64,000 nucleotides of DNA from Escherichia phage AV110: sequence record OR352940.1; one strand, 5' to 3'. How positions within the stretch are numbered: position 1 is the first letter of the stretch; every line of letters begins with the position of its first letter. A model generated the notes under the pieces. That model was given only the letters and a program-made list of their open reading frames with translations, was not told the origin of the DNA and did not search any database. Shown here piece after piece: positions 23,781 to 52,942 of the stretch. Made by a program: the position numbers and the translations under genes.

Positions 23781-23978
23781 ATGTTTAAACTTCCATCGTT
23801 AATCAACGCTATTAAAGGCAATAAAAAGAAAACTGCTATCGCTGCAATAGTTGTAGGTGGCATTATTTCATGGAACTTCGGGATTGCACCATTGTTAGTT
23901 GCCCATGGTATTATAGTTCCTTCTGTTCCATTGGATACTGTAGTTGATTTGGCCTTTGCTATTATAGGGCTTGTTTAA
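23781..23978 (+). CDS. small membrane protein (65 aa), plus strand
   Basis: Strong RBS AAGGAGATATTATG; two hydrophobic segments; convergent with gene 61; one of very few credible plus-strand genes. Confidence 0.45.
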   Translation: MFKLPSLINAIKGNKKKTAIAAIVVGGIISWNFGIAPLLVAHGIIVPSVPLDTVVDLAFAIIGLV

Positions 23979-24997
23979 ATCTTCGAATAACGAGATAATC
24001 TCATTTTAGCATGCAACCCACTTGAAATATTCTGTTTCATATATTCTAAAATTTCTTGTGGTGTTGCATTTTCTTTCATTACCATATCATTCACATCCTT
24101 TGAACTCCATGGAGCTCTATCCCAGAACATGACACGTTCGCCTGCATCAACTAATCGCTTCATGCGAGCTATAGTATCCGGATGCCTAGGTTCATTATCC
24201 ATTACCCATACCCGACGTTCTTTAAATGGTACCACATCTAAATCTATCGAGCCGCCTGTAATAGCGATTGCATTGGGTATGAATAAACTATCAATAGGGC
24301 CTTCCATTACCCAGACGTCTCCTTCCTTAACACGTTCAACACCATAAATTTTTGTTGCAGACTCAAACGCTTTAATAGTGATATATTTCTGAGGAGCATC
24401 TTTACGAAGTGCACGTCCTTGGAATGACTCGGCCTTCCCATCTTTATTAAAAATAGGAATCACTAAACGTGGTTCGGGGATCTCTTTCTTATACGTACCA
24501 GGTTGAATCTTGTTGACCAATTTGGGCCATTCTAATGTGAACCATAATCTGTTCCACGATTCTTTAGGAATACATCTAGACTTAACATATTTCACAATAG
24601 GATGCTCTTCAGGCAACTTGTCCAGACGAGAACAAGACGGCAAAGAATTTATAGTCTTTTTCTCTGGCTCCGGCTTAGCTTCAGGAACCTTTTCAATCTT
24701 TGGTTCCATTCTAGCTTTTTCTTTACGAACTTCCATTAGATACTCGCGATAAAGCTCTTCATCATACTCTTTTAAGTATCCGGAAATTGTATTGTGGTAT
24801 TGACAGTTATAGCAATGCACATTACCAGGAGTACCGCCATAATACCAACCGCGGGCTTTCATTGCATCTGTCTGAGAGTCGCCACAAACTGGACAACGAA
24901 ACGTTAATTTAAATGTGCTTGAATTATTGATTTGTCTAAAACGAGGGAGGTGAGAAAACGCACGATAAGCAAATTCATTATCTATCCATTCAGCCAT
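23975..24997 (-). CDS. 61: DNA primase gp61
   Basis: 340 aa; WIDNEFAYRA...FRCPVCGDS zinc ribbon and TOPRIM-like core matching T4 gp61 as recalled. Confidence 0.9.
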   Translation of the reverse strand: MAEWIDNEFAYRAFSHLPRFRQINNSSTFKLTFRCPVCGDSQTDAMKARGWYYGGTPGNVHCYNCQYHNTISGYLKEYDEELYREYLMEVRKEKARMEPKIEKVPEAKPEPEKKTINSLPSCSRLDKLPEEHPIVKYVKSRCIPKESWNRLWFTLEWPKLVNKIQPGTYKKEIPEPRLVIPIFNKDGKAESFQGRALRKDAPQKYITIKAFESATKIYGVERVKEGDVWVMEGPIDSLFIPNAIAITGGSIDLDVVPFKERRVWVMDNEPRHPDTIARMKRLVDAGERVMFWDRAPWSSKDVNDMVMKENATPQEILEYMKQNISSGLHAKMRLSRYSKI

Positions 24998-25036: not shown

Positions 25037-25531
25037 TCACAACTTATTAATATTTACTTTAATTCGCTTTCTTTTCTTGGAAGGAATTTGTTCGGGACCT
25101 TTATTTACAATTGCACCTGTAGTAGTTCCTGATGCAATAGCTTGAGGATTGCCGTCTGAATCACCAGCAACCATATCCTCAAATAAAGGGAGTTCTTTAA
25201 ATATTTCTTTCTGTTGTTCTTCCGTAATGTTATAGCGTGAAGCTACAGCACTCCAGGCAGACATCATTGAGGCCATTCCATTAAGACCTGGAACAGTGCT
25301 CATCATTCGCTTCATTGAACGAACTGAAGCATGAAAAGGTGTATAAGCCGCTTTCTCTTCAGGAGTGGAAGGACGTTTAAGAACACTTCCACGTTCATCG
25401 ATGATTTTGGCTTCGTATGCTTTCCATTCGGTAAAAGGTTTTTGCATTAGTCGAATAAACTTATATGCATAAACAGAATCTATTGCAGTGTTAATAATAC
25501 CCATAGGTACCTCCTGAGTATATTTAATCAA
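25037..25531 (-). CDS. hypothetical protein (164 aa)
   Basis: ORF in position of T4 61.1; basic C-terminus KKRKRIK. Confidence 0.5.
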   Translation of the reverse strand: MIKYTQEVPMGIINTAIDSVYAYKFIRLMQKPFTEWKAYEAKIIDERGSVLKRPSTPEEKAAYTPFHASVRSMKRMMSTVPGLNGMASMMSAWSAVASRYNITEEQQKEIFKELPLFEDMVAGDSDGNPQAIASGTTTGAIVNKGPEQIPSKKRKRIKVNINKL

Positions 25532-25722: not shown

Positions 25723-26382
25723 TTAACCTCGATTCATAAATGCATTAAATATTTGGTCATCAACAGAAATTTCTAATTCGACTTCAATTGCTTCAGCTTT
25801 TTCTTCAGGTGGTAATTCGTATCCACACACTACAATTTTTTCATCGATATCAAAATATACAGAAGCAATACGATTAATGTTATTTTCAGTTAAGTCCAAA
25901 TCAACATCAACATCTTTTTGGCCTACACTTAGAGGATAACTAATACGGGTTATTTTATTATCTTTAACAAAGAGTCCACCAACATACTCTGTACTACGTT
26001 TGAAGTTTACACGTTTCCGAATTGAAAGATATGATGCATCTTTACCGTGAGCTCGGCTCATAGGACATAATGAATAGCTAGAATAAGAGATGTCAAATCC
26101 TACACCTTCAATATGAGCCAACGTGTCATGATTAAACCAATTATAATCATATGCCAAATCCATTATATTGTAATATGTGAAAGGCACTGGATTAACATCA
26201 TATGTTGTACCTTTAAAATCTGCCCAGGCAACGATTTCGTTATCTTTAACAATTACAAAAATTACACCAATATGATATCCACGATTGTTTTCATCAGGCG
26301 TTATATTATAACATTGTGCATCAGGAAATTTACCGTATTTAAACGGTGGATTTTTGTGCATATAATAAATCATATTATTCAC
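25723..26382 (-). CDS. hypothetical protein in 61.2 position (219 aa)
   Basis: Position corresponds to T4 61.2, which I recall (not verified) as the anti-DarT factor adfA locus. Confidence 0.5.
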   Translation of the reverse strand: MNNMIYYMHKNPPFKYGKFPDAQCYNITPDENNRGYHIGVIFVIVKDNEIVAWADFKGTTYDVNPVPFTYYNIMDLAYDYNWFNHDTLAHIEGVGFDISYSSYSLCPMSRAHGKDASYLSIRKRVNFKRSTEYVGGLFVKDNKITRISYPLSVGQKDVDVDLDLTENNINRIASVYFDIDEKIVVCGYELPPEEKAEAIEVELEISVDDQIFNAFMNRG

Positions 26383-26668
26383 CTGTGATTTCGGTTACGA
26401 TATCTTTGTTATCGAAATTAGGGTCACAATACAAAACATAGTTGTACTGCATGGTACCACCAGACTTAAGTTGTTCAACAACTTTATTAACCATATTAGG
26501 ACGGTCTCGTTTAGTGATGTTCATGATATCAGAGAAGATTTGTTGTTCAACATCTTCTTGATTTGCAGTCATTGACCACTCACAGAGGTCTTTATCATAA
26601 CCTGCCGTAACTGGAGCCGGTGCACATGATACTGCAAGTAAGATTGCTGCCAATGATAACTTTTTCAT
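26375..26668 (-). CDS. sp: periplasmic protein Sp (spackle)-like
   Basis: 97 aa; signal peptide MKKLSLAAILLAVSCAPAPVTA; size and position as T4 sp (61.3); own early promoter. Confidence 0.55.
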   Translation of the reverse strand: MKKLSLAAILLAVSCAPAPVTAGYDKDLCEWSMTANQEDVEQQIFSDIMNITKRDRPNMVNKVVEQLKSGGTMQYNYVLYCDPNFDNKDIVTEITGE

Positions 26669-26697
26669 TTTAACTCCTTAGTTGATTTGATAGGACT

Positions 26698-26727
26698 ACT
26701 ATACTATAGTCCATCTATAATGTAAAC
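26698..26727 (-). promoter_or_regulatory. early promoter (GTTTAC-18-TATAGT) for sp
   Basis: Upstream of sp-like gene. Confidence 0.45.
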
Positions 26728-26731
26728 AAGT

Positions 26732-26980
26732 TTATTCTTTTTCGCGAATAATAATTACTTGTTGAGGCTGCTGAGCAGATTTCTTTTCGGCAACGATAGA
26801 CCAAATTAAAGTTCCAATCCAACCAACCATCGTCCAGTTAAAGAGTAAAGATACAAAGAAGATTGCTGTTGTGCTTTTTGTGCCACGAATAAGTGCGATT
26901 ACCCAAGGCAACATGTAAATGATGATTGAACCAATACCTGCGATTAAAACTGCTACTGAACTAGCTACGAATAATTCCAT
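26732..26980 (-). CDS. small inner-membrane protein, superinfection-immunity (Imm)-like
   Basis: 82 aa, two TM segments; pattern YMLPWVIALIRG...VGWIGTLIWS resembles the superinfection-immunity family; own promoter. Confidence 0.5.
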   Translation of the reverse strand: MELFVASSVAVLIAGIGSIIIYMLPWVIALIRGTKSTTAIFFVSLLFNWTMVGWIGTLIWSIVAEKKSAQQPQQVIIIREKE

Positions 26981-27008
26981 GTTAATTTCCTCTTGATTTG
27001 TTATGTTT

Positions 27009-27038
27009 ATAGTATCTTGTTTTAACTTTGGTGTAAAC
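27009..27038 (-). promoter_or_regulatory. early promoter (GTTTAC-18-TACTAT)
   Basis: Upstream of Imm-like membrane gene. Confidence 0.45.
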
Positions 27039-27041
27039 CAA

Positions 27042-27410
27042 TTAATTAAATTTGTTTAAACGTTCAATACACTGGACGTAGTTATTCGCGATTTGTTTCT
27101 GGGTAGGCTCTTTACCAGTTGTTTCAACATAGCGAATGAATGCGATTTCAGTAGCCTGTAGACAATGTTCTTTAACGCGTTGTTCTTTTGTCAATGCTAC
27201 AGTATCAGAATCACGATAACGTTGAGCATGAGCATCAGCTTGAATCATTCGATTACCTACAGTAACCGGGTCTTCCACTTCAACTTTAGGTTGCTCATAT
27301 TGTTTAACATTCGGATTGTAAATCAGTTGGCCGACGTTATTAGGAATAAAGCCATGGGCGCCACATCCGGTTAATCCAAATACCATTGCTAAAGCGATTA
27401 ATTTTTTCAT
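27042..27410 (-). CDS. lipoprotein (122 aa)
   Basis: Signal peptide with lipobox MVFGLTGC; own early promoter and GGAA RBS. Confidence 0.55.
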   Translation of the reverse strand: MKKLIALAMVFGLTGCGAHGFIPNNVGQLIYNPNVKQYEQPKVEVEDPVTVGNRMIQADAHAQRYRDSDTVALTKEQRVKEHCLQATEIAFIRYVETTGKEPTQKQIANNYVQCIERLNKFN

Positions 27411-27437
27411 TTCAATTTCCTCTGTAGTTGATAGAAA

Positions 27438-27467
27438 GATAGTAACACAGTATGTGGTGCTTGTAAA
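27438..27467 (-). promoter_or_regulatory. early promoter (GTTTAC-18-TACTAT)
   Basis: Upstream of lipoprotein gene. Confidence 0.45.
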
Positions 27468-27481
27468 CAGCTATTTTAAAA

Positions 27482-27691
27482 TTATCGAAAATCTGCTTCG
27501 AAAACTTTCTCGTCATTAACAAATGCTTTAACTAATGCTTTGTTCACTTCAGCAAGTTGTACCGCAACCCACTCGATTTCTTCACGGTCACCTGATAACA
27601 TGATATCTTTAGTGAACATCTCACCGCTTTTAAACCAACCGATAAAAGTAACTTTAGTTAATTTGCTCATATTTCCTCGCAAAATGCCCAT
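27482..27691 (-). CDS. hypothetical protein (about 62-69 aa)
   Basis: Position near T4 dmd (61.5); assignment not supported by sequence. Confidence 0.4.
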   Translation of the reverse strand: MGILRGNMSKLTKVTFIGWFKSGEMFTKDIMLSGDREEIEWVAVQLAEVNKALVKAFVNDEKVFEADFR

Positions 27692-27909
27692 TCAGCGTGA
27701 TAAACTGTAGCGCCTTTAGTATCATTCATTTGAACTACATCTACCGGAGAAATTACTCGATAGAGACGTGGTTCACCTCCATAAGAGTGTGCTGCTCGTC
27801 CTGCATAAATCTTTGCTAAACCGATATCTTCAGTAAAGAATACACGATCCAAGTTTTTCTTACGTCCAGTTTCAGACAGAACTCCTGTTTCTTCAGGAGG
27901 ACAAAGCAT
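27667..27909 (-). CDS. hypothetical protein (80 aa)
   Basis: No RBS at listed ATG; a 14-codon mini-ORF with good RBS lies just upstream in another frame. Confidence 0.35.
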   Translation of the reverse strand: MLCPPEETGVLSETGRKKNLDRVFFTEDIGLAKIYAGRAAHSYGGEPRLYRVISPVDVVQMNDTKGATVYHAEWAFCEEI

Positions 27910-27999
27910 GTTTTCGATGTTAGCTGAACTACTTGAACCGTTTAAATTCTGCTTTACAATCGATGGTTTTCATTTTGTTCTCCAGTAGTTGATAGGTCT

Positions 28000-28028
28000 A
28001 TAATAACACAACTACTGGAGAAGTAAAC
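28000..28028 (-). promoter_or_regulatory. early promoter (GTTTAC-17-TATTAT)
   Basis: Family-1 element with AGACCTATCAA. Confidence 0.45.
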
Positions 28029-28402
28029 TAAAAACGTAATTTAGATACATCTGCGTTGATTTCGTTTTGGTTTGCGTCGTATGCAATTAAACGAACTGCT
28101 TTAGATGGGTCATTCAATGCATAGAAATGATGGAACATTGCTCGAACGATATCACCATTTACGAGTTCTACCTGGATAGGAGAACCTTTTTCGAGTTGGA
28201 AATGTTCATAAGCTTTGATGGTTCGTAGATAATCAAGTTTTTGATTTCCGGCTCCAACAATTTGTACGATACGTTTGCCCGTGTTTTCCATACGAGATAC
28301 AATAGTTTTAGGAGCAAGAATAACGTAGGTTGCCAGCGGAGAAACTACTTCAACAGTTGTGTTTTCGGTGATTGCAGTAAAAATTGCTTGAGACATATTC
28401 AT
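28028..28402 (-). CDS. hypothetical protein (124 aa)
   Basis: AAGAGGAAA RBS; early promoter GTTTAC-18-TATGAT upstream. Confidence 0.5.
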   Translation of the reverse strand: MNMSQAIFTAITENTTVEVVSPLATYVILAPKTIVSRMENTGKRIVQIVGAGNQKLDYLRTIKAYEHFQLEKGSPIQVELVNGDIVRAMFHHFYALNDPSKAVRLIAYDANQNEINADVSKLRF

Positions 28403-28431
28403 AATGTTTTCCTCTTGGTTTGTGTAAGTAC

Positions 28432-28461
28432 ATCATATCATGCCTAGAGGAAGATGTAAAC
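28432..28461 (-). promoter_or_regulatory. early promoter (GTTTAC-18-TATGAT)
   Basis: Immediately after gp41 terminator hairpin, upstream of ORF 28028..28402. Confidence 0.45.
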
Positions 28462-28490: not shown

Positions 28491-29933
28491 TTAAAATTTT
28501 AACTCATTGGCTAAGCTATCTAGGTCAGCACGTGTTGCTTTGGCTTTACCTACGCGTTCCGTACGATTCACCTCTGCCTGACGCATCTGAGCACCTGCGT
28601 TTTCATTTACTGTGTTAGGTGTGTTCATGCCTTCTTGCTCAATCTCAACCCATTTCTGATTGCCTTTACGTACACCCATCAGGAATTTATTCCACTTATT
28701 CTTATCACCATATCGTGATTTGATTTGTTTGATAAGTTGTTGTTCAGCTTGTGCAAGTTCTTCGGTTTCAATTACAGCCAACATGAAATCTGCCGTTGCT
28801 GGTAAACCTGCTGATTCTGCGATATCACTCATGTTCATGTCTGAAGCATCCCATGCTGCACGTCCTACTTGAGCTGCAGTCCATAGAACTGTTTCAGATT
28901 CTACTGCTAATGCACGAAGTTCTTCTGCGATAGCTTTAACTAATGTGTAGCTATTTTCAGTGTAAACTCTGATACGACAAGACCCACAAATACCTAAGTA
29001 ATCAACCATGATTACAGATGGCACAAAGTTCTTCTTAAGTTTTAACTCATTAAGCAATGCACGGAATGTATTAGCATTAGCTCCGCCAGTAGGATACTGT
29101 TTAACTACTAAACGTCCTAATGTTGTTTTTGAACGCCATTTTTCCATCTTGGCTTTATATTCAGCATAAGATACGTTACCATCATCGATATCATCGAGTG
29201 ATACGTCAAGCATGTTTGCATCTATACGCTTAGCACAAACTTCTTCAGCCATTTCCATGGAAATATAAAGAACATTATGCCCTGTTTGAAGATAATCTGC
29301 AGCAAGTGAACAAAGGCCTAAAGATTTACCGACGTTAACACCAGCCATTAAAACGTTTAGTGTACCGGTTTCAGCACCACCTTTAGTGATTTTATTCAAA
29401 ATGTTTAATTTGAACGGGACCTTACGTGCTTTGTTCAGATAAGAAAGCCAGCGTGCTTCATAGTCTTCCATCCAGTCATGTCCAACATAACTATCAAACG
29501 AAATTGAAAGTGCTTGACGCATAATATCAGGAATAGCTCCTACGTCAGGCATTTTCTTGTTACGTTGTTCTGGAGGTAGTTCAGCATTAGACTGAATCTC
29601 AATGATTTTGGATGTAGCATTATACATCGCTTTTTGCTGGACATATTTCTCAGTTTCTTTAACCAACCATTCATGGTCTTCAGGAGTATCAGCCAATTTT
29701 TCAATTAGGTCTGAAGTTCCTTTATATTCGGCTTCAGTTAAAGAACTGTTATCTAAAGCCACCTTTAACGCATTGATAGATGGCATTGCATTATATTCGT
29801 TAACGTGGCTCTTTATAATTTTAAAGACATTTTTTGCCGGTCCACGCTCAAAATACTCAGAATCCATATAAGGCCAGACCTTAGAAAAATAAGCCTGGTC
29901 GTATACTAGATGAGACAAAATAATTTCTACCAC
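28491..29933 (-). CDS. 41: replicative DNA helicase gp41 (DnaB-like)
   Basis: 480 aa; Walker A GVNVGKS and RecA-like core; size and position as T4 gp41 (475 aa). Confidence 0.9.
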   Translation of the reverse strand: MVEIILSHLVYDQAYFSKVWPYMDSEYFERGPAKNVFKIIKSHVNEYNAMPSINALKVALDNSSLTEAEYKGTSDLIEKLADTPEDHEWLVKETEKYVQQKAMYNATSKIIEIQSNAELPPEQRNKKMPDVGAIPDIMRQALSISFDSYVGHDWMEDYEARWLSYLNKARKVPFKLNILNKITKGGAETGTLNVLMAGVNVGKSLGLCSLAADYLQTGHNVLYISMEMAEEVCAKRIDANMLDVSLDDIDDGNVSYAEYKAKMEKWRSKTTLGRLVVKQYPTGGANANTFRALLNELKLKKNFVPSVIMVDYLGICGSCRIRVYTENSYTLVKAIAEELRALAVESETVLWTAAQVGRAAWDASDMNMSDIAESAGLPATADFMLAVIETEELAQAEQQLIKQIKSRYGDKNKWNKFLMGVRKGNQKWVEIEQEGMNTPNTVNENAGAQMRQAEVNRTERVGKAKATRADLDSLANELKF

Positions 29934-32997: not shown

Positions 32998-33713
32998 TAG
33001 TCAAGGAATCCTTTAACATAATCAAAATCACGTTCAAACACATGGGCACTTACCATGGTATGAGTATAATCACCAACTTCTACACCGCATTCGTTAGCGA
33101 TATAATGAAGTAATTTTCCTTGGAGATAAAAATCCAACTGCATAACAACAGCACAGTTCTGAGAACGCATATGACAGTGGGTATAAAGCTTACCATCACG
33201 AATATAATAAGTCACTGAGTCAGTACATGGATATTCAAGTGTTTCGTCTGAATCAAGCAAAGCCTGATCAGAACTTTCTAGAATTTGGAACACAACTCTT
33301 CGGGAGTTAGGCTTCTCTTTAAGTTCTTTTAGAAGAGCTGGTAATTGAGCCGCAATGCGAGGACCATAGAAAGTGTTGAAGTTCGCCGGCAAAACATCTG
33401 ATTTTGGTTTAGAAATAAATTTAGCGACATTAGGATATGTCTTAAACGCTTCTTCTGCGTTGGTACCACCAGAAATCATAAACTTCCAGAAGTCTTCGGC
33501 ATATTCATAAGAGATGCGGTTAATACGTGGGTCGGTCATTTTGAATGATGATGGAGTGTCAACAACTACTGTCATAGACCCAATTTCATTACAACGTCCA
33601 ATACGAGAATCAGTTACGAATTCCGGGTTTTCTAAAATTTCACGATTGACTGCTTTAAATGCGGTTTGAAAATCTGCGGCTTTGATATATTTCATTGTGT
33701 TATGTTTTCCCAT
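32997..33713 (-). CDS. 42: dCMP hydroxymethylase gp42 (thymidylate-synthase fold)
   Basis: 238 aa; TS-like core with catalytic Cys context (LEYPCTDSVTYY...HCHMRSQN); size/position as T4 gene 42. Confidence 0.65.
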   Translation of the reverse strand: MGKHNTMKYIKAADFQTAFKAVNREILENPEFVTDSRIGRCNEIGSMTVVVDTPSSFKMTDPRINRISYEYAEDFWKFMISGGTNAEEAFKTYPNVAKFISKPKSDVLPANFNTFYGPRIAAQLPALLKELKEKPNSRRVVFQILESSDQALLDSDETLEYPCTDSVTYYIRDGKLYTHCHMRSQNCAVVMQLDFYLQGKLLHYIANECGVEVGDYTHTMVSAHVFERDFDYVKGFLD

Positions 33714-33755
33714 GTTTACCTCAATACAATTTATTATATACTCAATTCGTAAAGC

Positions 33756-33995
33756 TTATTTGAATTTCTTGACAATGTTGACATAACGTAAAGCTTCAGC
33801 ATCGATACTTCCAAGAACACTATGAAGAAATGCATCAGCGTAGTATTCCAATTGAACAGGTTCTTTAATCACTTTAGCCGCTTTAGTTTCAAACAGGCCC
33901 ATCAGGGCCTTTTTAAGAATTTGTTCATTAGTGTTCAGATTCATAGTCAAAATCTCTTCATTAAGTTGGTGGTTAAAAGTTTTTCTAGAAATCAT
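33756..33995 (-). CDS. hypothetical protein (79 aa)
   Basis: ORF with ATGA overlap to upstream enzyme gene. Confidence 0.45.
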   Translation of the reverse strand: MISRKTFNHQLNEEILTMNLNTNEQILKKALMGLFETKAAKVIKEPVQLEYYADAFLHSVLGSIDAEALRYVNIVKKFK

Positions 33996-35152
33996 TCCGG
34001 GTACCTCAAAGCGTCATCAGAGTTAGTTATATCAATAATAGATATAGAGTTTTCTGCTAACCCGTTTTTAGATAATTGACGTTTATAATATCTTTCACAA
34101 TATGTACACGTCGTCCCGCAGATTTCATTAGCACAATCGAAATCTGGATGTCTGAACCACCTTTTTTCTAAAAAGCCATCTAACAAAGAGGTTTCAATAT
34201 TTACTGTATGTGAAAACTCAGTTTCGTTTTCAAGAGTGAAAATAGTCTCTAAAGGCTTCCACAGTTCTAACAAATTACCTTCAAACTTTTCAGAAGCGTA
34301 TGCTTCAAGAACTTTCAAAATGTAGTCTGTGCTACCTGTACGTCCTGAAACTTTGAATTGAGTGATACCAATATCATTATAAAGTTTCAAATCTTGAGGA
34401 CGAACAAAACGAGTTCTCAACCAGTTAAATGGGTCTGTATCACGAGCTTTAATACAGTGCTGCATAGGATATCCGTTTAAGGATTTAGCATCATCAGCTG
34501 TAACATCAGTACTATGGAAAATATAGCAAGAGTCACGATAGCTACAATGTGTTGTATACCCTTTACCAGCATTAGAACAGAACTCATTTACAAGAACTTC
34601 AAATATTATATTGTTCTTATTGCAAAACTCTGCTGCACGCTTCAGGAAAGAAACTGAACGGTTCTTATGAATTCCACAGCAGACCTTTTTGATATTATAT
34701 TGGTCATGCAAGTATTTGATTTGAGTTACAGCATCGACATGTAGAATTGTTGAAACTTCAATCTCAATGTCTTTATTGACTTCACGAACAATTTCCATAA
34801 CAACAGGGTTAGCGATAGTAATACGCCATACGCCTATTGACCAAAGATACTGAACATAATCCTGAATAGCTTTCTTCTTCCACTCAACTAGTTCTCTTTT
34901 TGAACCAGGATTTATCGTGTTGAGTGTATAGTTAAAGCAAATACCTAATTCGTTACAACGTTTAACGTAATCTTCTAACATCTTTTTGTCAACGTCAGGA
35001 AGCCTAAAATCAGGTCTGGCTGCTACAAAAGCCATTTCTCTTGTAGAGCCATATACTTCGTTTATCAAGCTATTAGGATAGGTTTTATTGAGCTCTACGA
35101 TTTTATCAAGAAGAGCTAAATCAAAATTTGTTCCGATTTTAAAAGTATTCAT
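33992..35152 (-). CDS. Cys-rich enzyme of unknown function (386 aa), possible Fe-S protein
   Basis: Several Cys clusters including C-x4-C-x3-C-x2-C near C-terminus (DCANEICGTTCTYCERY); embedded in the sugar-nucleotide cluster. Confidence 0.5.
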   Translation of the reverse strand: MNTFKIGTNFDLALLDKIVELNKTYPNSLINEVYGSTREMAFVAARPDFRLPDVDKKMLEDYVKRCNELGICFNYTLNTINPGSKRELVEWKKKAIQDYVQYLWSIGVWRITIANPVVMEIVREVNKDIEIEVSTILHVDAVTQIKYLHDQYNIKKVCCGIHKNRSVSFLKRAAEFCNKNNIIFEVLVNEFCSNAGKGYTTHCSYRDSCYIFHSTDVTADDAKSLNGYPMQHCIKARDTDPFNWLRTRFVRPQDLKLYNDIGITQFKVSGRTGSTDYILKVLEAYASEKFEGNLLELWKPLETIFTLENETEFSHTVNIETSLLDGFLEKRWFRHPDFDCANEICGTTCTYCERYYKRQLSKNGLAENSISIIDITNSDDALRYPE

Positions 35153-35211
35153 TTTTTTTGCATCTCACGTTAATTGATGCGATGGTTTTTTTGCAGGTCT
35201 TACTTAAATTA

Positions 35212-35613
35212 TTATAGATTCGGTTTATACGATTTAAATGTTTCGAATTCGCCTTTATTCATAAGAGCTTTGAATTCGTCAGGACGCATAGCTTTGTCGT
35301 CGATAATCCAATCATATACTGGTTTATGTGTTAGCAAATTATGGTACTTCAAGCCAATGTTTGCCAAGTTCTGAATCAGACTTGGGAGAATGTCAATTGC
35401 TATACGACCAGGACCTACTGACTTCATACCGCGAGCAGTGTAAAGCGTTATTGTATGCCCTGCATCATACAGAGCATTAATGGCAGACACCATTTCGACG
35501 TCCGGTTTGAAGTTCACATAATCACGATTGTTATTCCACTCTGTTATACAATCATCGACATCAAAACAAAGATTAAGCATGTTTTCTACACGGTGCATTA
35601 GATTCGTTCCCAT
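35212..35613 (-). CDS. HAD-superfamily phosphatase-like protein
   Basis: Motif I LCFDVDDCIT, motif II ITLYTAR, motif III K...DD; start may be Met-6 (TAATG-coupled at about 35598). Confidence 0.55.
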   Translation of the reverse strand: MGTNLMHRVENMLNLCFDVDDCITEWNNNRDYVNFKPDVEMVSAINALYDAGHTITLYTARGMKSVGPGRIAIDILPSLIQNLANIGLKYHNLLTHKPVYDWIIDDKAMRPDEFKALMNKGEFETFKSYKPNL

Positions 35614-37283
35614 TGATGAGTGATATCGCCACCGATTGGACGATAAGAAACACCAGTTTCTTTATCAGTTAGTACCCATTTACCAGGATTTTTTGTAATC
35701 AGAGTAGCCGTTACAGGTTCTGCTACGTCATAACTAATAGAGCCGTCCTGAAGTACACGGCCCATGTTACGTAATTGCTTAGTCAGAAGTTCCATACCTT
35801 TATAATATGCGGCTACCGCTTTAAGTGGATTATTCTTGAAATAACCACCTAATGCAATCCAGATAATTGCTACAGCCAAATGATGATATTCATTAAACGA
35901 ACTCAGCTTTCCATATTTGTAAACTAATGGATTGATGTTAATAGTCACATTACAAGTTGTTTCATCAATAGTAAACTGTCCCCAGGTCGGATTAGCGTTG
36001 AATTCATCATAACCTGAAACAGCGTAAAGCACTTTAGCTTCGTCGTACAATTTCGGCCCGTAAATCTTGGTTTCGCCAAAATATCCACGAGGGTCGATAA
36101 ACTTGACTTCGCCGTTATCAGTAATCATAGTATTACTGAAGTTCGGGTCACCATGAATAACAGAGTACTGTCCCTGAGAACGGTTATGATAACGAATAAG
36201 GTGTTCTAAAGCTTGTTTCAGCATTGGCTTCAGACGTCCAATCTTAGTGTAGTTCACATGTGTGATTTTACCAAATGAATCAATCAATGGTTGAATGCTT
36301 TCACAACGATCAATAACTTTCGTATAGAATTCTTTAGTGAAATCACGACGAACAGTTTCAGGACTTACAAAATAAGTGTCTGCGCTGAATTTCAGTGCAT
36401 CTAAAATTGCATCAATAATTTGTGGACGAGCAAGACTTGATTTTGATTTAATATATTCAAATGCCGGCTTACCTTTAATGCGTTCCATTTCAAAGTTATT
36501 TTCATTAACAGAAACTAACTGAGGAACTGAATCTGATTTCACTTTCAAATACCACGAAATCTCATCTTTCTGAAGAGCTCGACCCTGTTCGGTTAATGCG
36601 AATTTAGTTACAGTTTCTTCGCCAATTTCAACTGCATTAAAACTACGGTTCAGTTCACGAACTTCATGGGCCTTTTCAAGTTTAGGCATATCACCAAGGT
36701 CGATGATATTCATAAGCTCTGATTTATTGAATGCGCCGCTGTAAAGGAATTCTACGAAATCACGTCCTTTGCAGTATTCATGAATTTCCTCATCGGTAGA
36801 ACCCATATAGAATTCCCAGTCTTTGAACTGATAAATTCCTACAACATTACCGCCTGTTTCACCTACATTAGTGATATTTTCACCATCGAAATTATACCGA
36901 CATTCATCACCCTTAACATAGATTGCGTTAACATTCCAAGACCAAGAACCAAAATCGGGAATAATATCACACCAGTTAACAATTACATTATGGCCGTCTA
37001 AATCTTTGTGTAATTTAGCAAGAGCATAAGCAGAACCATACGCTTCATCAACTGTACGAATAGTCACATTGAACCCTTCTTGCTCACAATAAGCTCGAAC
37101 AGTTTCAGCAAATTTTGAATGAACTACTACAATAATTTCATCTGCGCCAAGGTCAGAATAAATTGTATACAAATTGCTCAGAATAGTGTCTTGCTTATAG
37201 TTAACAAGCACCTTAGGAATATGATGCGTTATTGGATACAAACGAGTTGCCAGTCCAGCACCAAGAATAACAGCTTTTTTCAT
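35598..37283 (-). CDS. bifunctional sugar-1-phosphate nucleotidyltransferase / APH-like sugar kinase
   Basis: 561 aa; N-terminus AVILGAGLATRLYPIT (RmlA/GlmU-type NTase signature); C-terminus VIHGDPNFSNTMI and FIDPRG (aminoglycoside/choline-kinase Brenner and DFG-like motifs). Confidence 0.7.
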   Translation of the reverse strand: MKKAVILGAGLATRLYPITHHIPKVLVNYKQDTILSNLYTIYSDLGADEIIVVVHSKFAETVRAYCEQEGFNVTIRTVDEAYGSAYALAKLHKDLDGHNVIVNWCDIIPDFGSWSWNVNAIYVKGDECRYNFDGENITNVGETGGNVVGIYQFKDWEFYMGSTDEEIHEYCKGRDFVEFLYSGAFNKSELMNIIDLGDMPKLEKAHEVRELNRSFNAVEIGEETVTKFALTEQGRALQKDEISWYLKVKSDSVPQLVSVNENNFEMERIKGKPAFEYIKSKSSLARPQIIDAILDALKFSADTYFVSPETVRRDFTKEFYTKVIDRCESIQPLIDSFGKITHVNYTKIGRLKPMLKQALEHLIRYHNRSQGQYSVIHGDPNFSNTMITDNGEVKFIDPRGYFGETKIYGPKLYDEAKVLYAVSGYDEFNANPTWGQFTIDETTCNVTININPLVYKYGKLSSFNEYHHLAVAIIWIALGGYFKNNPLKAVAAYYKGMELLTKQLRNMGRVLQDGSISYDVAEPVTATLITKNPGKWVLTDKETGVSYRPIGGDITHQWERI

Positions 37284-37324
37284 GTTGAAGTCCTCATTGG
37301 TAAGTAGGAGTATTGTACACTATT

Positions 37325-37468
37325 CTAGTTAAAGCATTCATACTTTGCCTGTAGACCAATCATAATCCATCCAATTACAAGTGTTGGAATCATTACCGGA
37401 GCCGTTAAGCTCCAGTAGATAGTCATGGCAAGCATCAATAGTAAAAGTCCTATTGTTATTGCTTTCAT
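37325..37468 (-). CDS. small membrane protein (47 aa)
   Basis: Hand-found ORF MKAITIGLLLLMLAMTIYWSL..., ATGA-coupled to upstream SIS gene; sits where T4 has imm/imm.1. Confidence 0.35.
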   Translation of the reverse strand: MKAITIGLLLLMLAMTIYWSLTAPVMIPTLVIGWIMIGLQAKYECFN

Positions 37469-38100
37469 TGTTCGCCTCGTAACATGGCACCTAGTGCACC
37501 ACCTGGATGGAACTTAAGGAAGTCATTAGAGGTAAATCCACGTTCAGACGAAAGGTTGATAGCGAACGTATCGATAAGCGCTAACAACAATGTAGTAGAC
37601 ATTGTCGGAGCTAAAGAGTTCTCGTCAACTTCTACCGCGATACCGGTACAGAACGTATAATCAAAAAGAGCTTCGTATTCTTGTGGAATGTCAGGGTTAC
37701 AATGTAACAGAATCTGTTTAACCTGAGGACGAATCATACGAAGATGTTTAGCAACACCTATCATTTCTTCAGTCTTACCAGAACGACTGATGTGAACTAA
37801 TACATCATTAGGTGCAATAAATCCTGCGTCACCATGAGAATAATGCCCAGTGTTCAAGTACATACTTGGGATACCGAGTGAAGCAAAAGTCTCGGAAGCT
37901 TTAGTTGCGATATTAGCGTTCTTACCAACACCTGTAATAATTACTCGGCTTTCATAATTACTAAGTCCCGGGCGTCGAAGAGTTTCTAGAATAGCATTAT
38001 AACGAGCAGGGTTTTGACTAATTACTTTAGCCATAGTGGCAAGAGATGAAGCTTGTTTTACGATTGCGTCAATAGCGATAGTGATTGGTGTAGTTTTCAT
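37465..38100 (-). CDS. SIS-domain sugar-phosphate isomerase, arabinose-5-phosphate isomerase (KdsD/GutQ)-like
   Basis: 211 aa; KdsD-type SIS motifs (TFASLGIPS, HGDAGF, ISRSGKT, LAPTMSTT, GFTSNDF..HPGGALG); lacks CBS domains. Confidence 0.7.
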   Translation of the reverse strand: MKTTPITIAIDAIVKQASSLATMAKVISQNPARYNAILETLRRPGLSNYESRVIITGVGKNANIATKASETFASLGIPSMYLNTGHYSHGDAGFIAPNDVLVHISRSGKTEEMIGVAKHLRMIRPQVKQILLHCNPDIPQEYEALFDYTFCTGIAVEVDENSLAPTMSTTLLLALIDTFAINLSSERGFTSNDFLKFHPGGALGAMLRGEQ

Positions 38101-52471: not shown

Positions 52472-52942
52472 TTAATCATGTTTCCACACCCCATCGGTAT
52501 TTGACCAAAGTCGCTGGTTATCTGATCCTCGCCACAGTTTTTTGGTCGGAAGATTTTTCTCATACTTCCCATCAATAATAACATCAACATATTTAAGCAT
52601 TTCTAGTTGTTTAATATCTTCAAACTTATATCCTGTCCACAACCAAATGCTTTTATTTGGATAAAGATTTTTTACTGTTTGAACAATGCAATGAATAACA
52701 TCTCGGTTATCAGGATAGAGAGGGTCACCTCCGGTTATAGTCAATCCTTCTATATAATCATTATTCAAACATTCAATTAATTGTTCTAGTGTTTCGCCAG
52801 TGAATGGAATACCATTTCTAGCATTCCATGTTGATTTATTATAACACCCTTCACATTTATGCAAACAACCTGTAACGAAAAGAACGACCCTGCAACCAGG
52901 GCCATTCACAAAATCGCAAGGATAAAATCTATCATAATTCAT
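52472..52942 (-). CDS. nrdG: anaerobic ribonucleotide reductase activating protein NrdG (radical SAM)
   Basis: 156 aa; radical-SAM cysteine cluster CLHKCEGC; overlaps nrdD end as in T4. Confidence 0.85.
   Translation of the reverse strand: MNYDRFYPCDFVNGPGCRVVLFVTGCLHKCEGCYNKSTWNARNGIPFTGETLEQLIECLNNDYIEGLTITGGDPLYPDNRDVIHCIVQTVKNLYPNKSIWLWTGYKFEDIKQLEMLKYVDVIIDGKYEKNLPTKKLWRGSDNQRLWSNTDGVWKHD

What the first reader, a model, noticed from the sequence alone, without database searches (positions are those of the whole stretch)
26375..27410. Cluster of separately promoted envelope proteins: Sp-like, Imm-like and a lipoprotein
Between genes 41 and 61 three consecutive genes encode a signal-peptide periplasmic protein (Sp-like), a two-TM protein with a superinfection-immunity-like pattern, and a lipobox lipoprotein, each with its own early promoter. 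This looks like a superinfection-exclusion or envelope-modification module; the lipoprotein has no T4 equivalent I recognise and could block a receptor.
Basis: partly seen in the sequence, partly recalled or inferred. Interest (0 to 1): 0.6.

Follow-up and report, generated by a model that had tools for sequence, protein, structure and literature searches.

The report
T-even superinfection-exclusion genes sp, imm, imm.1
The three genes are the RB69-type copies of the phage T4 genes sp, imm and imm.1; all three are already annotated in many phage genomes, and only the conserved lipoprotein Imm.1, which almost always sits beside imm, still has no known function.

Summary
Window 26375-27410 (minus strand) carries three consecutive small envelope-protein genes, and each has a T4-early-type promoter motif directly upstream.

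The window is a Mosigvirus (RB69-like T-even phage), about 98% identical in DNA to more than 150 deposited genomes that already annotate these genes.

- **Gene 1** is Spackle: Pfam T4_Spackle at 142 bits, and 66% identical to T4 Sp.
- **Gene 2** is Imm: Pfam Imm_superinfect, and 64% identical to T4 Imm.
It is Imm.1 (DUF5481, phrog_1754; 34% identity, E 9e-20), and T4 Imm.1 also has a lipobox.

In T4 the imm.1-imm pair lies between genes 43 and 42. Here it lies next to sp.

Imm.1-family lipoproteins lie next to imm, or one small gene away, in all 15 T-even-like lineages where the neighbourhood could be read. These cover at least three genomic contexts.

Imm.1 function is unknown. A receptor-blocking role is unlikely, because T2, T4 and T6 share 98% identical Imm.1 despite using different receptors. 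Knock-down of T4 imm.1 showed no fitness cost in a published screen.

Verdict: real, largely already known, low to moderate interest. The open point is whether Imm.1 is a third exclusion factor tethered to the outer membrane.

The parts
27439..27468 (-). T4-early-type promoter motif upstream of imm.1 (GTTTACAAGCACCACATACTGTGTTACTAT)
   Evidence: The motif search found 23 matches against 3.5 expected. The sigma-70 scan gives TTTACA-17-TACTAT preceded by TG. T4 has the same motif upstream of its imm.1. Activity was not tested.
27042..27410 (-). imm.1: 122-aa lipoprotein (lipobox LTGC, Cys16, Gly at +2), orthologue of T4 Imm.1; function unknown
   Evidence: Pfam DUF5481 at 39.8 bits (cut-off 27) and phrog_1754 at E 3.7e-29. 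It is 34% identical to T4 Imm.1, E 9e-20. Lipobox found. AF2 models residues 17-46 as disordered and places a confident helical hairpin at 75-120 holding the invariant Cys83 and Cys114. The sequence is identical to GenBank WPK33982.1 from phage AV110.
27009..27038 (-). T4-early-type promoter motif upstream of imm (GTTTACACCAAAGTTAAAACAAGATACTAT)
   Evidence: T4 has only 11 bp and no such motif between imm.1 and imm, so a separate imm promoter is specific to this lineage.
26732..26980 (-). imm: 82-aa inner-membrane superinfection-immunity protein
   Evidence: Pfam Imm_superinfect at 56.9 bits (cut-off 27.9) and phrog_1039. It is 64% identical to T4 Imm. T4 residues R33 and W50, whose mutation weakens exclusion (bioRxiv 10.64898/2026.03.06.709160), are conserved here as R32 and W49.
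26698..26727 (-). T4-early-type promoter motif upstream of sp (GTTTACATTATAGATGGACTATAGTATAGT)
   Evidence: T4 has the same motif at the same place upstream of sp.
26375..26668 (-). sp: 97-aa Spackle precursor (signal peptide 1-22, mature 75 aa), periplasmic inhibitor of the tail lysozyme gp5
   Evidence: Pfam T4_Spackle at 142 bits and phrog_1586. It is 66% identical to T4 Sp. It matches PDB 6x6o and 7cn6 at E 4e-39. Cys29, Cys81 and the gp5-contacting S32-M33-T34-A35 are conserved.
27482..27691 (-). dmd (context): antitoxin against RnlA/LsoA, immediately upstream of the cluster
   Evidence: Pfam Dmd at 72 bits and phrog_2102. The annotated start in relatives corresponds to Met8 of this ORF.
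25723..26382 (-). adfA / 61.2 (context): anti-DarT factor A; in relatives the annotated start comes 1 nt after the sp stop, so it is probably co-transcribed with sp
   Evidence: Pfam AdfA at 405 bits. Annotation in phage mogra.

Best explanation
The region is the RB69-type (Mosigvirus) version of the T-even phage superinfection-exclusion genes. It is expressed early from three stacked sigma-70-type early promoters.

**Sp.** It is exported by the Sec pathway and cleaved after Ala22. The 75-residue disulfide-bonded helical protein binds the lysozyme domain of the tail spike gp5 of an incoming phage. This stops peptidoglycan digestion. The activity is shown for T4 Sp and inferred here from 66% identity and conserved contact residues.

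**Imm.** It sits in the inner membrane and binds the tape-measure protein gp29 of the incoming phage. The genome-translocation channel therefore cannot form. This is shown for T4 Imm in a 2026 preprint and inferred here from 64% identity and the conserved Arg and Trp.

**The lipoprotein.** It is the orthologue of T4 Imm.1. It is predicted to be lipidated at Cys16 and sorted by the Lol pathway to the inner face of the outer membrane, since no family member has Asp at +2. It would hang a small disulfide-stapled helical domain into the periplasm on a disordered tether of about 30 residues.

Imm.1 is a conserved neighbour of imm. In this lineage the imm.1-imm pair has moved from the 43/42 interval to sit beside sp, inside an island of host-interaction genes (dmd, adfA).

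The biochemical role of Imm.1 is unknown. My best guess, by inference only and at roughly 30-35%, is that it acts as an accessory envelope-level barrier against incoming T-even-like tails at the outer-membrane side, complementing Sp in the periplasm and Imm in the inner membrane.
For: **Identity of the phage and region.** The region is 98% identical in DNA over 3.5 kb to Mosigvirus genomes; 152 records cover at least 80% of it. The annotations sp, imm and Imm.1 are already in those records.

**Sp.**

**Imm.**

**Imm.1 orthology.**. T4 Imm.1 has lipobox LAGC.

**Relocation.** T4 has 43 > imm.1 > imm > 42. In the window the 43-42 interval holds SIS, NTP-transferase and U32-like genes and no Imm.

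**Linkage of the Imm.1 family (phrog_1754) to imm.**
- T4, T2 and T6.
- Mosigvirus.
- A metagenome contig with frd.3 > imm.1 > imm.
- Gelderlandvirus, Moonvirus, Muldoonvirus and Jiaodavirus.
- Serratia phage 4S.
- Three further metagenome contigs.
- Gaprivervirus and fDHCT2, with the order imm > (42.1) > lipoprotein.

**Rarity and family features.** Lipoproteins are rare: only one credible signal in the 64-kb window. Family invariants are the lipobox G-C, one Tyr and the Cys pair. No member has Asp at +2.

**Structure.** AF2 gives a disordered tether plus a helical hairpin with pLDDT about 90.

**Promoters.**
Against: - Nothing here tests function. Exclusion activity of these particular proteins is inferred from T4.
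- For Imm.1 there is no functional evidence of any kind. The label 'immunity protein' in GenBank is annotation transfer.
- In a published T4 CRISPRi-ART screen, imm.1 knock-down scored 'Not Fit' while imm scored 'Fit' (PMC11879866 supplement). Imm.1 is therefore dispensable in that laboratory assay and is probably not required for Imm to work.
- T4 Imm alone gives exclusion from a plasmid.
- One homologue lacks the lipid-anchor Cys (P0002, LAGF).
- Imm occurs without an adjacent lipoprotein in Providencia phage PSTRCR_127 and in the small non-T4-like phage KP591P3.
- In one metagenome lineage the lipoprotein follows gene 43 with no imm between it and the next gene (L020).
- Gene adjacency may reflect shared early expression of envelope proteins, not a shared function.
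Confidence: 0.8

Rival explanations
1. Imm.1 is a receptor-blocking lipoprotein of the T5 Llp or phi80/N15 Cor kind. An outer-membrane lipoprotein would bind the periplasmic face of the phage's own receptor and make it unusable.
For: It has the same predicted location and timing: an early gene, a lipobox and no Asp at +2. T5 Llp works this way (PMC9586334, listed). There is a very weak PHROG hit of the Serratia PS2 homologue to Cor, E 8e-4, covering residues 1-40 only, which is essentially the signal peptide.
Against: - T2, T4 and T6 use different protein receptors (established knowledge) yet have 98% identical Imm.1.
- The window protein has no Pfam or PHROG match to Llp or Cor.
- Foldseek against PDB and BFVD found only family members.
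- Secondary T-even phages still adsorb to and eject into infected cells, which is the basis of lysis inhibition and of Imm/Sp action (established knowledge).
Confidence: 0.07
2. Imm.1 is an obligate partner or assembly factor of Imm. For example, it could help insert Imm, localise it, or bridge it to the outer membrane at injection sites. The two would form one functional unit.
For: The two genes are adjacent in about 15 lineages and at least three genomic contexts. The pair has moved together to three different places: 43/42, dmd/sp and after frd.3. In T4-type genomes the gap is only 8-11 bp, suggesting co-translation. The Klebsiella phage counts nearly match: 138 records with Imm and 135 with the lipoprotein.
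Against: - T4 Imm alone excludes from a plasmid and forms a complex with the tape-measure protein without Imm.1.
- imm.1 knock-down has no fitness phenotype whereas imm knock-down does.
- Imm.1 diverges far faster than Imm: 34% against 64% identity between T4 and this phage.
- Gene order is not fixed: Gaprivervirus has imm first with a small gene in between.
- In this window the two genes have separate promoter motifs.
Confidence: 0.15
3. Imm.1 has nothing to do with superinfection exclusion. It would be an early envelope protein with another role, for example protecting the outer membrane or peptidoglycan during infection, modulating lysis inhibition, or countering a host envelope-associated defence. 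Its linkage to imm and the clustering with sp here would be by-products of genome rearrangement when the arabinosyl-hmC gene set occupied the 43-42 interval.
For: The neighbourhood is a mixed bag of host-interaction genes with unrelated targets: dmd against RnlA and adfA against DarT. The 43-42 interval in this phage is occupied by SIS, NTP-transferase and U32-like genes. Imm.1 shows fast divergence, typical of arms-race proteins. It has no phenotype in a standard laboratory screen.
Against: The imm.1-imm pair persists in lineages with very different surroundings. Imm and Sp have also become adjacent independently in Gualtarvirus, which suggests that clustering of exclusion genes is favoured and not accidental.
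Confidence: 0.4

Closest known systems
T4 Spackle (Sp, gp61.3; Pfam PF25676; PDB 6x6o, 6xc0, 6xc1, 7cn6, 7cn7)
   Same: Same length (97 aa) and 66% identity. The signal peptide, the Cys29-Cys81 pair, the gp5-contacting S32-A35 segment and the genomic position upstream of 61.2/adfA with an early promoter motif all match.
   Different: Its upstream neighbour is imm instead of 61.4. About one third of residues differ. Activity against the cognate RB69-type gp5 was not tested.
T4 Imm (Pfam PF14373 Imm_superinfect; phrog_1039)
   Same: 64% identity, 82 aa against 83 aa. The hydrophobic segments and functionally important Arg and Trp are conserved, and it is preceded by imm.1.
   Different: It lies between imm.1 and sp in the 41-61 interval, not between 43 and 42. 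It has its own promoter motif and a 61-bp spacer after imm.1, whereas T4 has an 11-bp gap and no motif.
T4 Imm.1 (Pfam DUF5481 PF17578; phrog_1754), an uncharacterised predicted membrane protein
   Same: Homologous over the full length (E 9e-20). It shares the lipobox, the YNPNVK motif, the C-terminal Cys pair and the position immediately upstream of imm.
   Different: Only 34% identical. It lacks about 15 residues after the lipid Cys (the VVxxSxVGK segment) and the extra Cys pair of the T4 protein.
T5 Llp and phi80/N15 Cor receptor-blocking lipoproteins
   Same: A small, phage-encoded lipoprotein that is expressed early and predicted to go to the outer membrane.
   Different: There is no sequence or fold similarity. 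Imm.1 does not vary with receptor specificity.
Bacterial lysozyme-inhibitor lipoproteins (MliC/PliC family)
   Same: A lipoprotein in the periplasm, encoded beside a lysozyme inhibitor (Sp).
   Different: Those inhibitors are beta-sheet proteins (PMC7677548). The Imm.1 model is all-helical, and there is no Pfam match.

Membership tests
T4 Spackle (PF25676) | Profile match above the curated cut-off over the full length | tested here: met
   142.4 bits against a cut-off of 27, covering residues 1-96 of 96 profile positions. phrog_1586 at E 4e-42.
T4 Spackle (PF25676) | Cleavable Sec signal peptide giving a mature periplasmic protein of about 75 aa | tested here: met
   The N-terminus is MKK plus a hydrophobic core plus VTA|G. 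It aligns without gaps to T4 Sp, whose solved mature chain starts at residue 23. No SignalP run was possible.
T4 Spackle (PF25676) | Disulfide pair Cys29-Cys81 and the gp5-contacting end of helix alpha1 (Ser32-Ala35) | tested here: met
   All are conserved in the pairwise alignment. The residues are taken from PMC7677548.
T4 Spackle (PF25676) | Inhibits the gp5 tail lysozyme; exclusion phenotype | not testable with these tools
   Needs biochemistry or plating assays.
Imm superinfection immunity (PF14373) | Profile match above the curated cut-off | tested here: met
   56.9 bits against a cut-off of 27.9. phrog_1039 at E 1e-30. 64% identical to T4 Imm.
Imm superinfection immunity (PF14373) | Small inner-membrane protein with two hydrophobic segments | tested here: met
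   Kyte-Doolittle 19-residue windows above 1.6 start at residues 1-16 and 40-41.
Imm superinfection immunity (PF14373) | Residues needed for exclusion in T4 (R33, W50) | tested here: met
   Conserved as R32 and W49. The mutational data come from bioRxiv 10.64898/2026.03.06.709160.
Imm superinfection immunity (PF14373) | Binds the tape-measure protein and blocks DNA entry | not testable with these tools
   Needs co-purification and plating assays.
Imm.1 (DUF5481 / phrog_1754) | Profile match above the curated cut-off and reciprocal similarity to T4 Imm.1 | tested here: met
   DUF5481 at 39.8 bits against a cut-off of 27. phrog_1754 at E 3.7e-29. BLASTP to T4 Imm.1 at E 9e-20. T4 Imm.1 itself scores 239 bits on DUF5481.
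Imm.1 (DUF5481 / phrog_1754) | Lipoprotein signal (lipobox with Cys), conserved Tyr motif and C-terminal Cys pair | tested here: met
   LTGC at 13-16. Y31, C83 and C114 are invariant in the 11-sequence family alignment.
Imm.1 (DUF5481 / phrog_1754) | Located next to imm | tested here: met
   It lies 61 bp upstream of imm here. The same pairing is seen in about 15 lineages.
Imm.1 (DUF5481 / phrog_1754) | Actual lipidation and outer-membrane location | not testable with these tools
   Predicted only, from the lipobox and the absence of Asp at +2.
Llp/Cor receptor-blocking lipoproteins | Sequence or fold similarity to Llp or Cor | tested here: not met
   The window protein has no Pfam or PHROG hit to them. 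Foldseek against PDB and BFVD found only Imm.1 relatives.
Llp/Cor receptor-blocking lipoproteins | Specificity tracks the receptor used by the phage | tested here: not met
   T2, T4 and T6 Imm.1 are 98% identical, although these phages use different receptors (established knowledge).

The most novel reading that the evidence does not exclude
Imm.1 would be a third, so far unrecognised component of T-even superinfection exclusion. It would be an outer-membrane-anchored lipoprotein whose tethered, disulfide-stapled helical domain intercepts a component of the incoming tail tip, tube or tape-measure protein just beneath the outer membrane. Infected cells would then carry one barrier in each envelope layer: Imm.1 at the outer membrane, Sp in the periplasm and Imm in the inner membrane. 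Its rapid divergence between genera would set which competitor phages are excluded.
Probability: 0.3. Interest if true: 0.6.

Novelty: already known. Interest (0 to 1): 0.3.

Why it matters
In itself the finding re-discovers the classical T-even exclusion genes in an RB69-like genome, so it matters little.

What may deserve a bench test is the by-product. In a model phage studied for 70 years, the gene immediately upstream of imm encodes a lipoprotein that has stayed next to imm across many T-even-like genera and through at least three relocations. Yet it has no assigned function, and RefSeq mislabels it 'iduronate sulfatase'.

The mechanisms of Sp (2020) and Imm (2026 preprint) have only just been solved. 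Imm.1 is therefore the obvious remaining candidate for the incompletely explained part of T-even exclusion and of mutual exclusion between T4 and RB69-type phages.

Tried and rejected
1. **Fold recognition for Imm.1.** Two AF2 models (3-sequence and 20-sequence alignments; mean pLDDT 60 and 63) are confident only for the C-terminal hairpin. Foldseek against PDB gave nothing below E = 3. Against BFVD it found only Imm.1 relatives. A PDB sequence search gave nothing. No functional lead emerged.

2. **Imm.1 related to Spackle?** Both are small helical periplasmic proteins with one disulfide. hhalign aligned only the signal peptides (probability 11%), so this was rejected.

3. **NCBIfam.** No model hits any of the three proteins.

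4. **A second imm copy at the canonical 43-42 locus.** None is present. That interval holds SIS, NTP-transferase/kinase and U32-like genes.

5. **Wider homologue search.**
   - A full HMMER scan of 1.84 billion representatives found only 8 hits, so the family looked narrow.
   - A profile of synteny-derived relatives then recovered 19 clusters.
   - The search for related loci with that divergent alignment failed for lack of a conserved stretch.

6. **Literature.** A whole-word search for 'imm.1' plus 'phage' found one paper, which lists Imm.1 as absent from the RB69 group. The homology found here contradicts that. The 1993 Lu/Stierhof/Henning paper on Imm topology is not held.

7. **Receptor blocker.** Rejected as the leading idea.
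Full report
**What is at the coordinates**

All genes in this part of the window are on the minus strand. Between gene 41 helicase (28491-29933) and gene 61 primase (23975-24997) the order of transcription is as follows:

- a 124-aa ORF;
- a disrupted phrog_2110 gene;
- dmd (27482-27691);
- a 122-aa ORF (27042-27410);
- an 82-aa ORF (26732-26980);
- a 97-aa ORF (26375-26668);
- adfA/61.2 (25723-26382);
- a 65-aa ORF;
- 61.1.

The finding's coordinates are exactly the three middle ORFs.

The 97-aa protein has a Sec-type signal (MKK, hydrophobic core, VTA|G). The 82-aa protein has two hydrophobic stretches. The 122-aa protein has a textbook lipoprotein signal, MKKLIALAMVFGLTGC. A scan of the whole 64-kb window finds only one other pattern match, in an ORF at 52472-52942 whose N-terminus does not look like an export signal. 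Imm.1 is therefore the only credible lipoprotein in the window.

**Promoters**

The T4 early-promoter pattern GTTTAC-N16-19-TANNNT occurs 23 times in the window against 3.5 expected from shuffles, whose maximum was 7. Twenty of the 23 are on the coding strand. One lies in each of the three short intergenic gaps directly upstream of the three genes. T4 has the same motif upstream of sp, dmd and imm.1, but none between imm.1 and imm.

No terminator-like site separates the three genes, so the promoters probably add to read-through transcription. Promoter activity is inferred, not shown.

**Where the window comes from**

The region is about 98% identical in DNA to many Mosigvirus (RB69-like, Tevenvirinae) genomes, among them Shigella phages JK42 and JK45 and Escherichia phages APCEc01 and mogra. 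In total 152 records cover at least 80% of the 3.5-kb query. Those records already annotate 'spackle periplasmic protein', 'immunity to superinfection membrane protein' and 'Imm.1 conserved hypothetical predicted membrane protein'. The lipoprotein sequence is identical to GenBank WPK33982.1 of phage AV110.

**Identity of the three genes**

*Sp.*
- Pfam T4_Spackle scores 142 bits against a cut-off of 27.
- It is 66% identical to T4 Sp with no gaps and matches solved Spackle structures at E 4e-39.
- The disulfide cysteines and the Ser32-Ala35 segment that contacts gp5 lysozyme are conserved.

*Imm.*
- Pfam Imm_superinfect scores 56.9 bits against a cut-off of 27.9.
- It is 64% identical to T4 Imm.
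- It keeps the Arg and Trp whose mutation weakens T4 Imm in a 2026 preprint. That preprint shows Imm binding the tape-measure protein gp29.

*The lipoprotein.* It is not without a T4 equivalent.
- It matches Pfam DUF5481 and phrog_1754, the families of T4 Imm.1.
- It aligns over its full length with T4 Imm.1 at 34% identity, E 9e-20.
- T4 Imm.1 also begins with a lipobox (LAGC).

**Genome arrangement**

In T4 the order is 43 > imm.1 > imm > 42, and separately 41 > dmd > 61.4 > sp > 61.2 > 61.1 > 61. In this window the 43-42 interval contains SIS-domain, nucleotidyl-transferase/kinase and U32-like genes and no Imm. The imm.1-imm pair sits between dmd and sp.

The 'cluster' is therefore the T4 sp locus plus a relocated imm.1-imm pair. 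It lies within a stretch that also holds the antitoxin Dmd and the anti-DarT factor AdfA.

**Imm.1 across phages**

Genes adjacent to imm in other genera led to a set of divergent lipoproteins of 120-177 aa. All match phrog_1754, with E values from 1e-15 to 1e-52. They share the lipobox, one invariant Tyr and a C-terminal Cys pair.

| Lineage | Gene order |
|---|---|
| T4, T2, T6 | imm.1 > imm |
| Mosigvirus | dmd > (61.4) > imm.1 > imm > sp |
| Metagenome contig L011 | frd.3 > imm.1 > imm |
| Gelderlandvirus, Moonvirus, Muldoonvirus, Jiaodavirus | lipoprotein > imm > 42, except Muldoonvirus PS2, where two further genes lie between imm and 42 |
| Serratia phage 4S | 43 > lipoprotein > imm > SIS |
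| Metagenome contigs L019, L021, L023 | lipoprotein > imm > 42 |
| Gaprivervirus | imm > 42.1 > lipoprotein |
| fDHCT2 | imm > lipoprotein |

Exceptions:
- Contig L020, where the lipoprotein follows gene 43 and is followed by SIS with no imm between.
- Providencia phage PSTRCR_127, where imm has no lipoprotein neighbour but is followed directly by an sp homologue.
- A small non-T4-like Klebsiella phage that has an Imm homologue only.

Record counts in the phage collection point the same way. Imm is found in 1040 records and Sp in 897. The Imm.1 subtypes are found in 656-690, 148 and 60 records. These sets may overlap and were not merged.

**What Imm.1 looks like**

AF2 models the protein as follows:
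- residues 17-46 are disordered;
- a low-confidence helix spans 48-68;
- a confident hairpin (75-98 and 104-120, pLDDT about 90) carries Cys83 and Cys114.

No family member has Asp at +2, which in E. coli predicts transfer to the outer membrane (plus the established Lol sorting rule). All members have an even number of non-lipid cysteines, as expected for periplasmic disulfides. One homologue (P0002) has Phe in place of the lipid Cys and would be a soluble periplasmic protein.

No fold or sequence relative with a known function was found. There is no relation to Spackle beyond the signal peptide.

**What Imm.1 might do**

Its co-inheritance with imm and its predicted place under the outer membrane suggest an envelope-level role in handling incoming phage. 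That is inference only.

Against a receptor-blocking (Llp/Cor-like) role:
- T2, T4 and T6 Imm.1 are 98% identical, although the three phages use different receptors.
- T-even secondary phages are known still to adsorb and eject.

Against an obligate-partner role:
- T4 Imm works and binds the tape-measure protein on its own.
- In the CRISPRi-ART screen of T4, imm.1 knock-down was 'Not Fit' (score -0.77) while imm was 'Fit' (score 1.40, p 0.022).

Imm.1 diverged much more between T4 and this phage (34%) than its neighbours did:

| Protein | Identity to T4 (%) |
|---|---|
| gp41 | 86 |
| gp61 | 74 |
| Sp | 66 |
| AdfA | 66 |
| Imm | 64 |
| gp43 | 62 |
| Dmd | 55 |
| Imm.1 | 34 |

This pattern fits either weak constraint or an arms-race target.

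**Verdict**

The lipoprotein is the known but uncharacterised imm.1, and the arrangement is already in public annotations. I rate the finding as already known and of low to moderate interest.

The residual value is a testable hypothesis about Imm.1. I put its being a genuine exclusion factor at roughly 0.3.

Noticed in passing
window 27667-27990 (minus strand): The gene between the 124-aa ORF and dmd (phrog_2110, 105 aa in phage mogra) carries an 11-bp deletion (GATTTTTTATC) relative to mogra. This shifts the frame, so only an 80-aa C-terminal ORF (27667-27909) remains open. It is either a natural pseudogene or an assembly error.
   Followed up: partly
window about 27411-27481 (dmd / imm.1 intergenic): Gene 61.4, which lies between dmd and imm.1 in some Mosigviruses such as vB_Eco_mar005P1, is absent here and in JK42 and mogra. 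BLAST shows those genomes as two pieces with about 218 extra bases.
   Followed up: partly
window 33700-38100 (minus strand), between genes 43 and 42: In place of T4's imm.1-imm, this interval holds a SIS-domain sugar isomerase (37465-38100), a 561-aa nucleotidyl-transferase with a kinase-like C-terminus (35598-37283), a U32-peptidase-like protein (33992-35152) and small ORFs. This looks like the RB69-type cytosine hypermodification (arabinosyl-hmC) gene set. The local gene 42 is only 25% identical to T4 gp42.
   Followed up: partly
L026 2019-2452 (Providencia phage PSTRCR_127, Gualtarvirus): Here imm is followed directly by a shortened (80 aa) Spackle homologue that keeps the GYxKDxCE and YCDxxF motifs. 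imm and sp have thus become neighbours independently of the Mosigvirus arrangement.
   Followed up: partly
L011 718-1351 (Logan contig SRR30535852_365571): This is a third genomic context for the pair: frd.3 > imm.1 > imm. Its Imm.1 (P0002, 47% identical to the window protein) has LAGF in place of the lipobox Cys, so it would be a soluble periplasmic protein and not a lipoprotein.
   Followed up: partly
L003 10637-11014 (T4 imm.1, NC_000866): RefSeq names T4 imm.1 'iduronate sulfatase', and the label has spread to other records (HX01, IME340). The 125-aa protein matches only DUF5481 and has no sulfatase domain, so the product name is spurious. Separately, PMC5885020 lists Imm.1 as absent from the RB69 group; the 34%-identical orthologue found here contradicts that.
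   Followed up: yes
window 26698-28461 (minus strand): Five early-promoter motifs fall within 1.8 kb, one in front of each of the 124-aa ORF, the disrupted phrog_2110 gene, imm.1, imm and sp. This is an unusually dense run of separately promoted small genes.
   Followed up: no
window 25037-25531 (minus strand): The 61.1 homologue here is 164 aa (155 aa from the annotated ATG) against 54 aa in T4. Only its C-terminal 40 or so residues align with T4 gp61.1. The N-terminal part matches other PHROGs (phrog_2086, phrog_18642) of unknown function.
   Followed up: no
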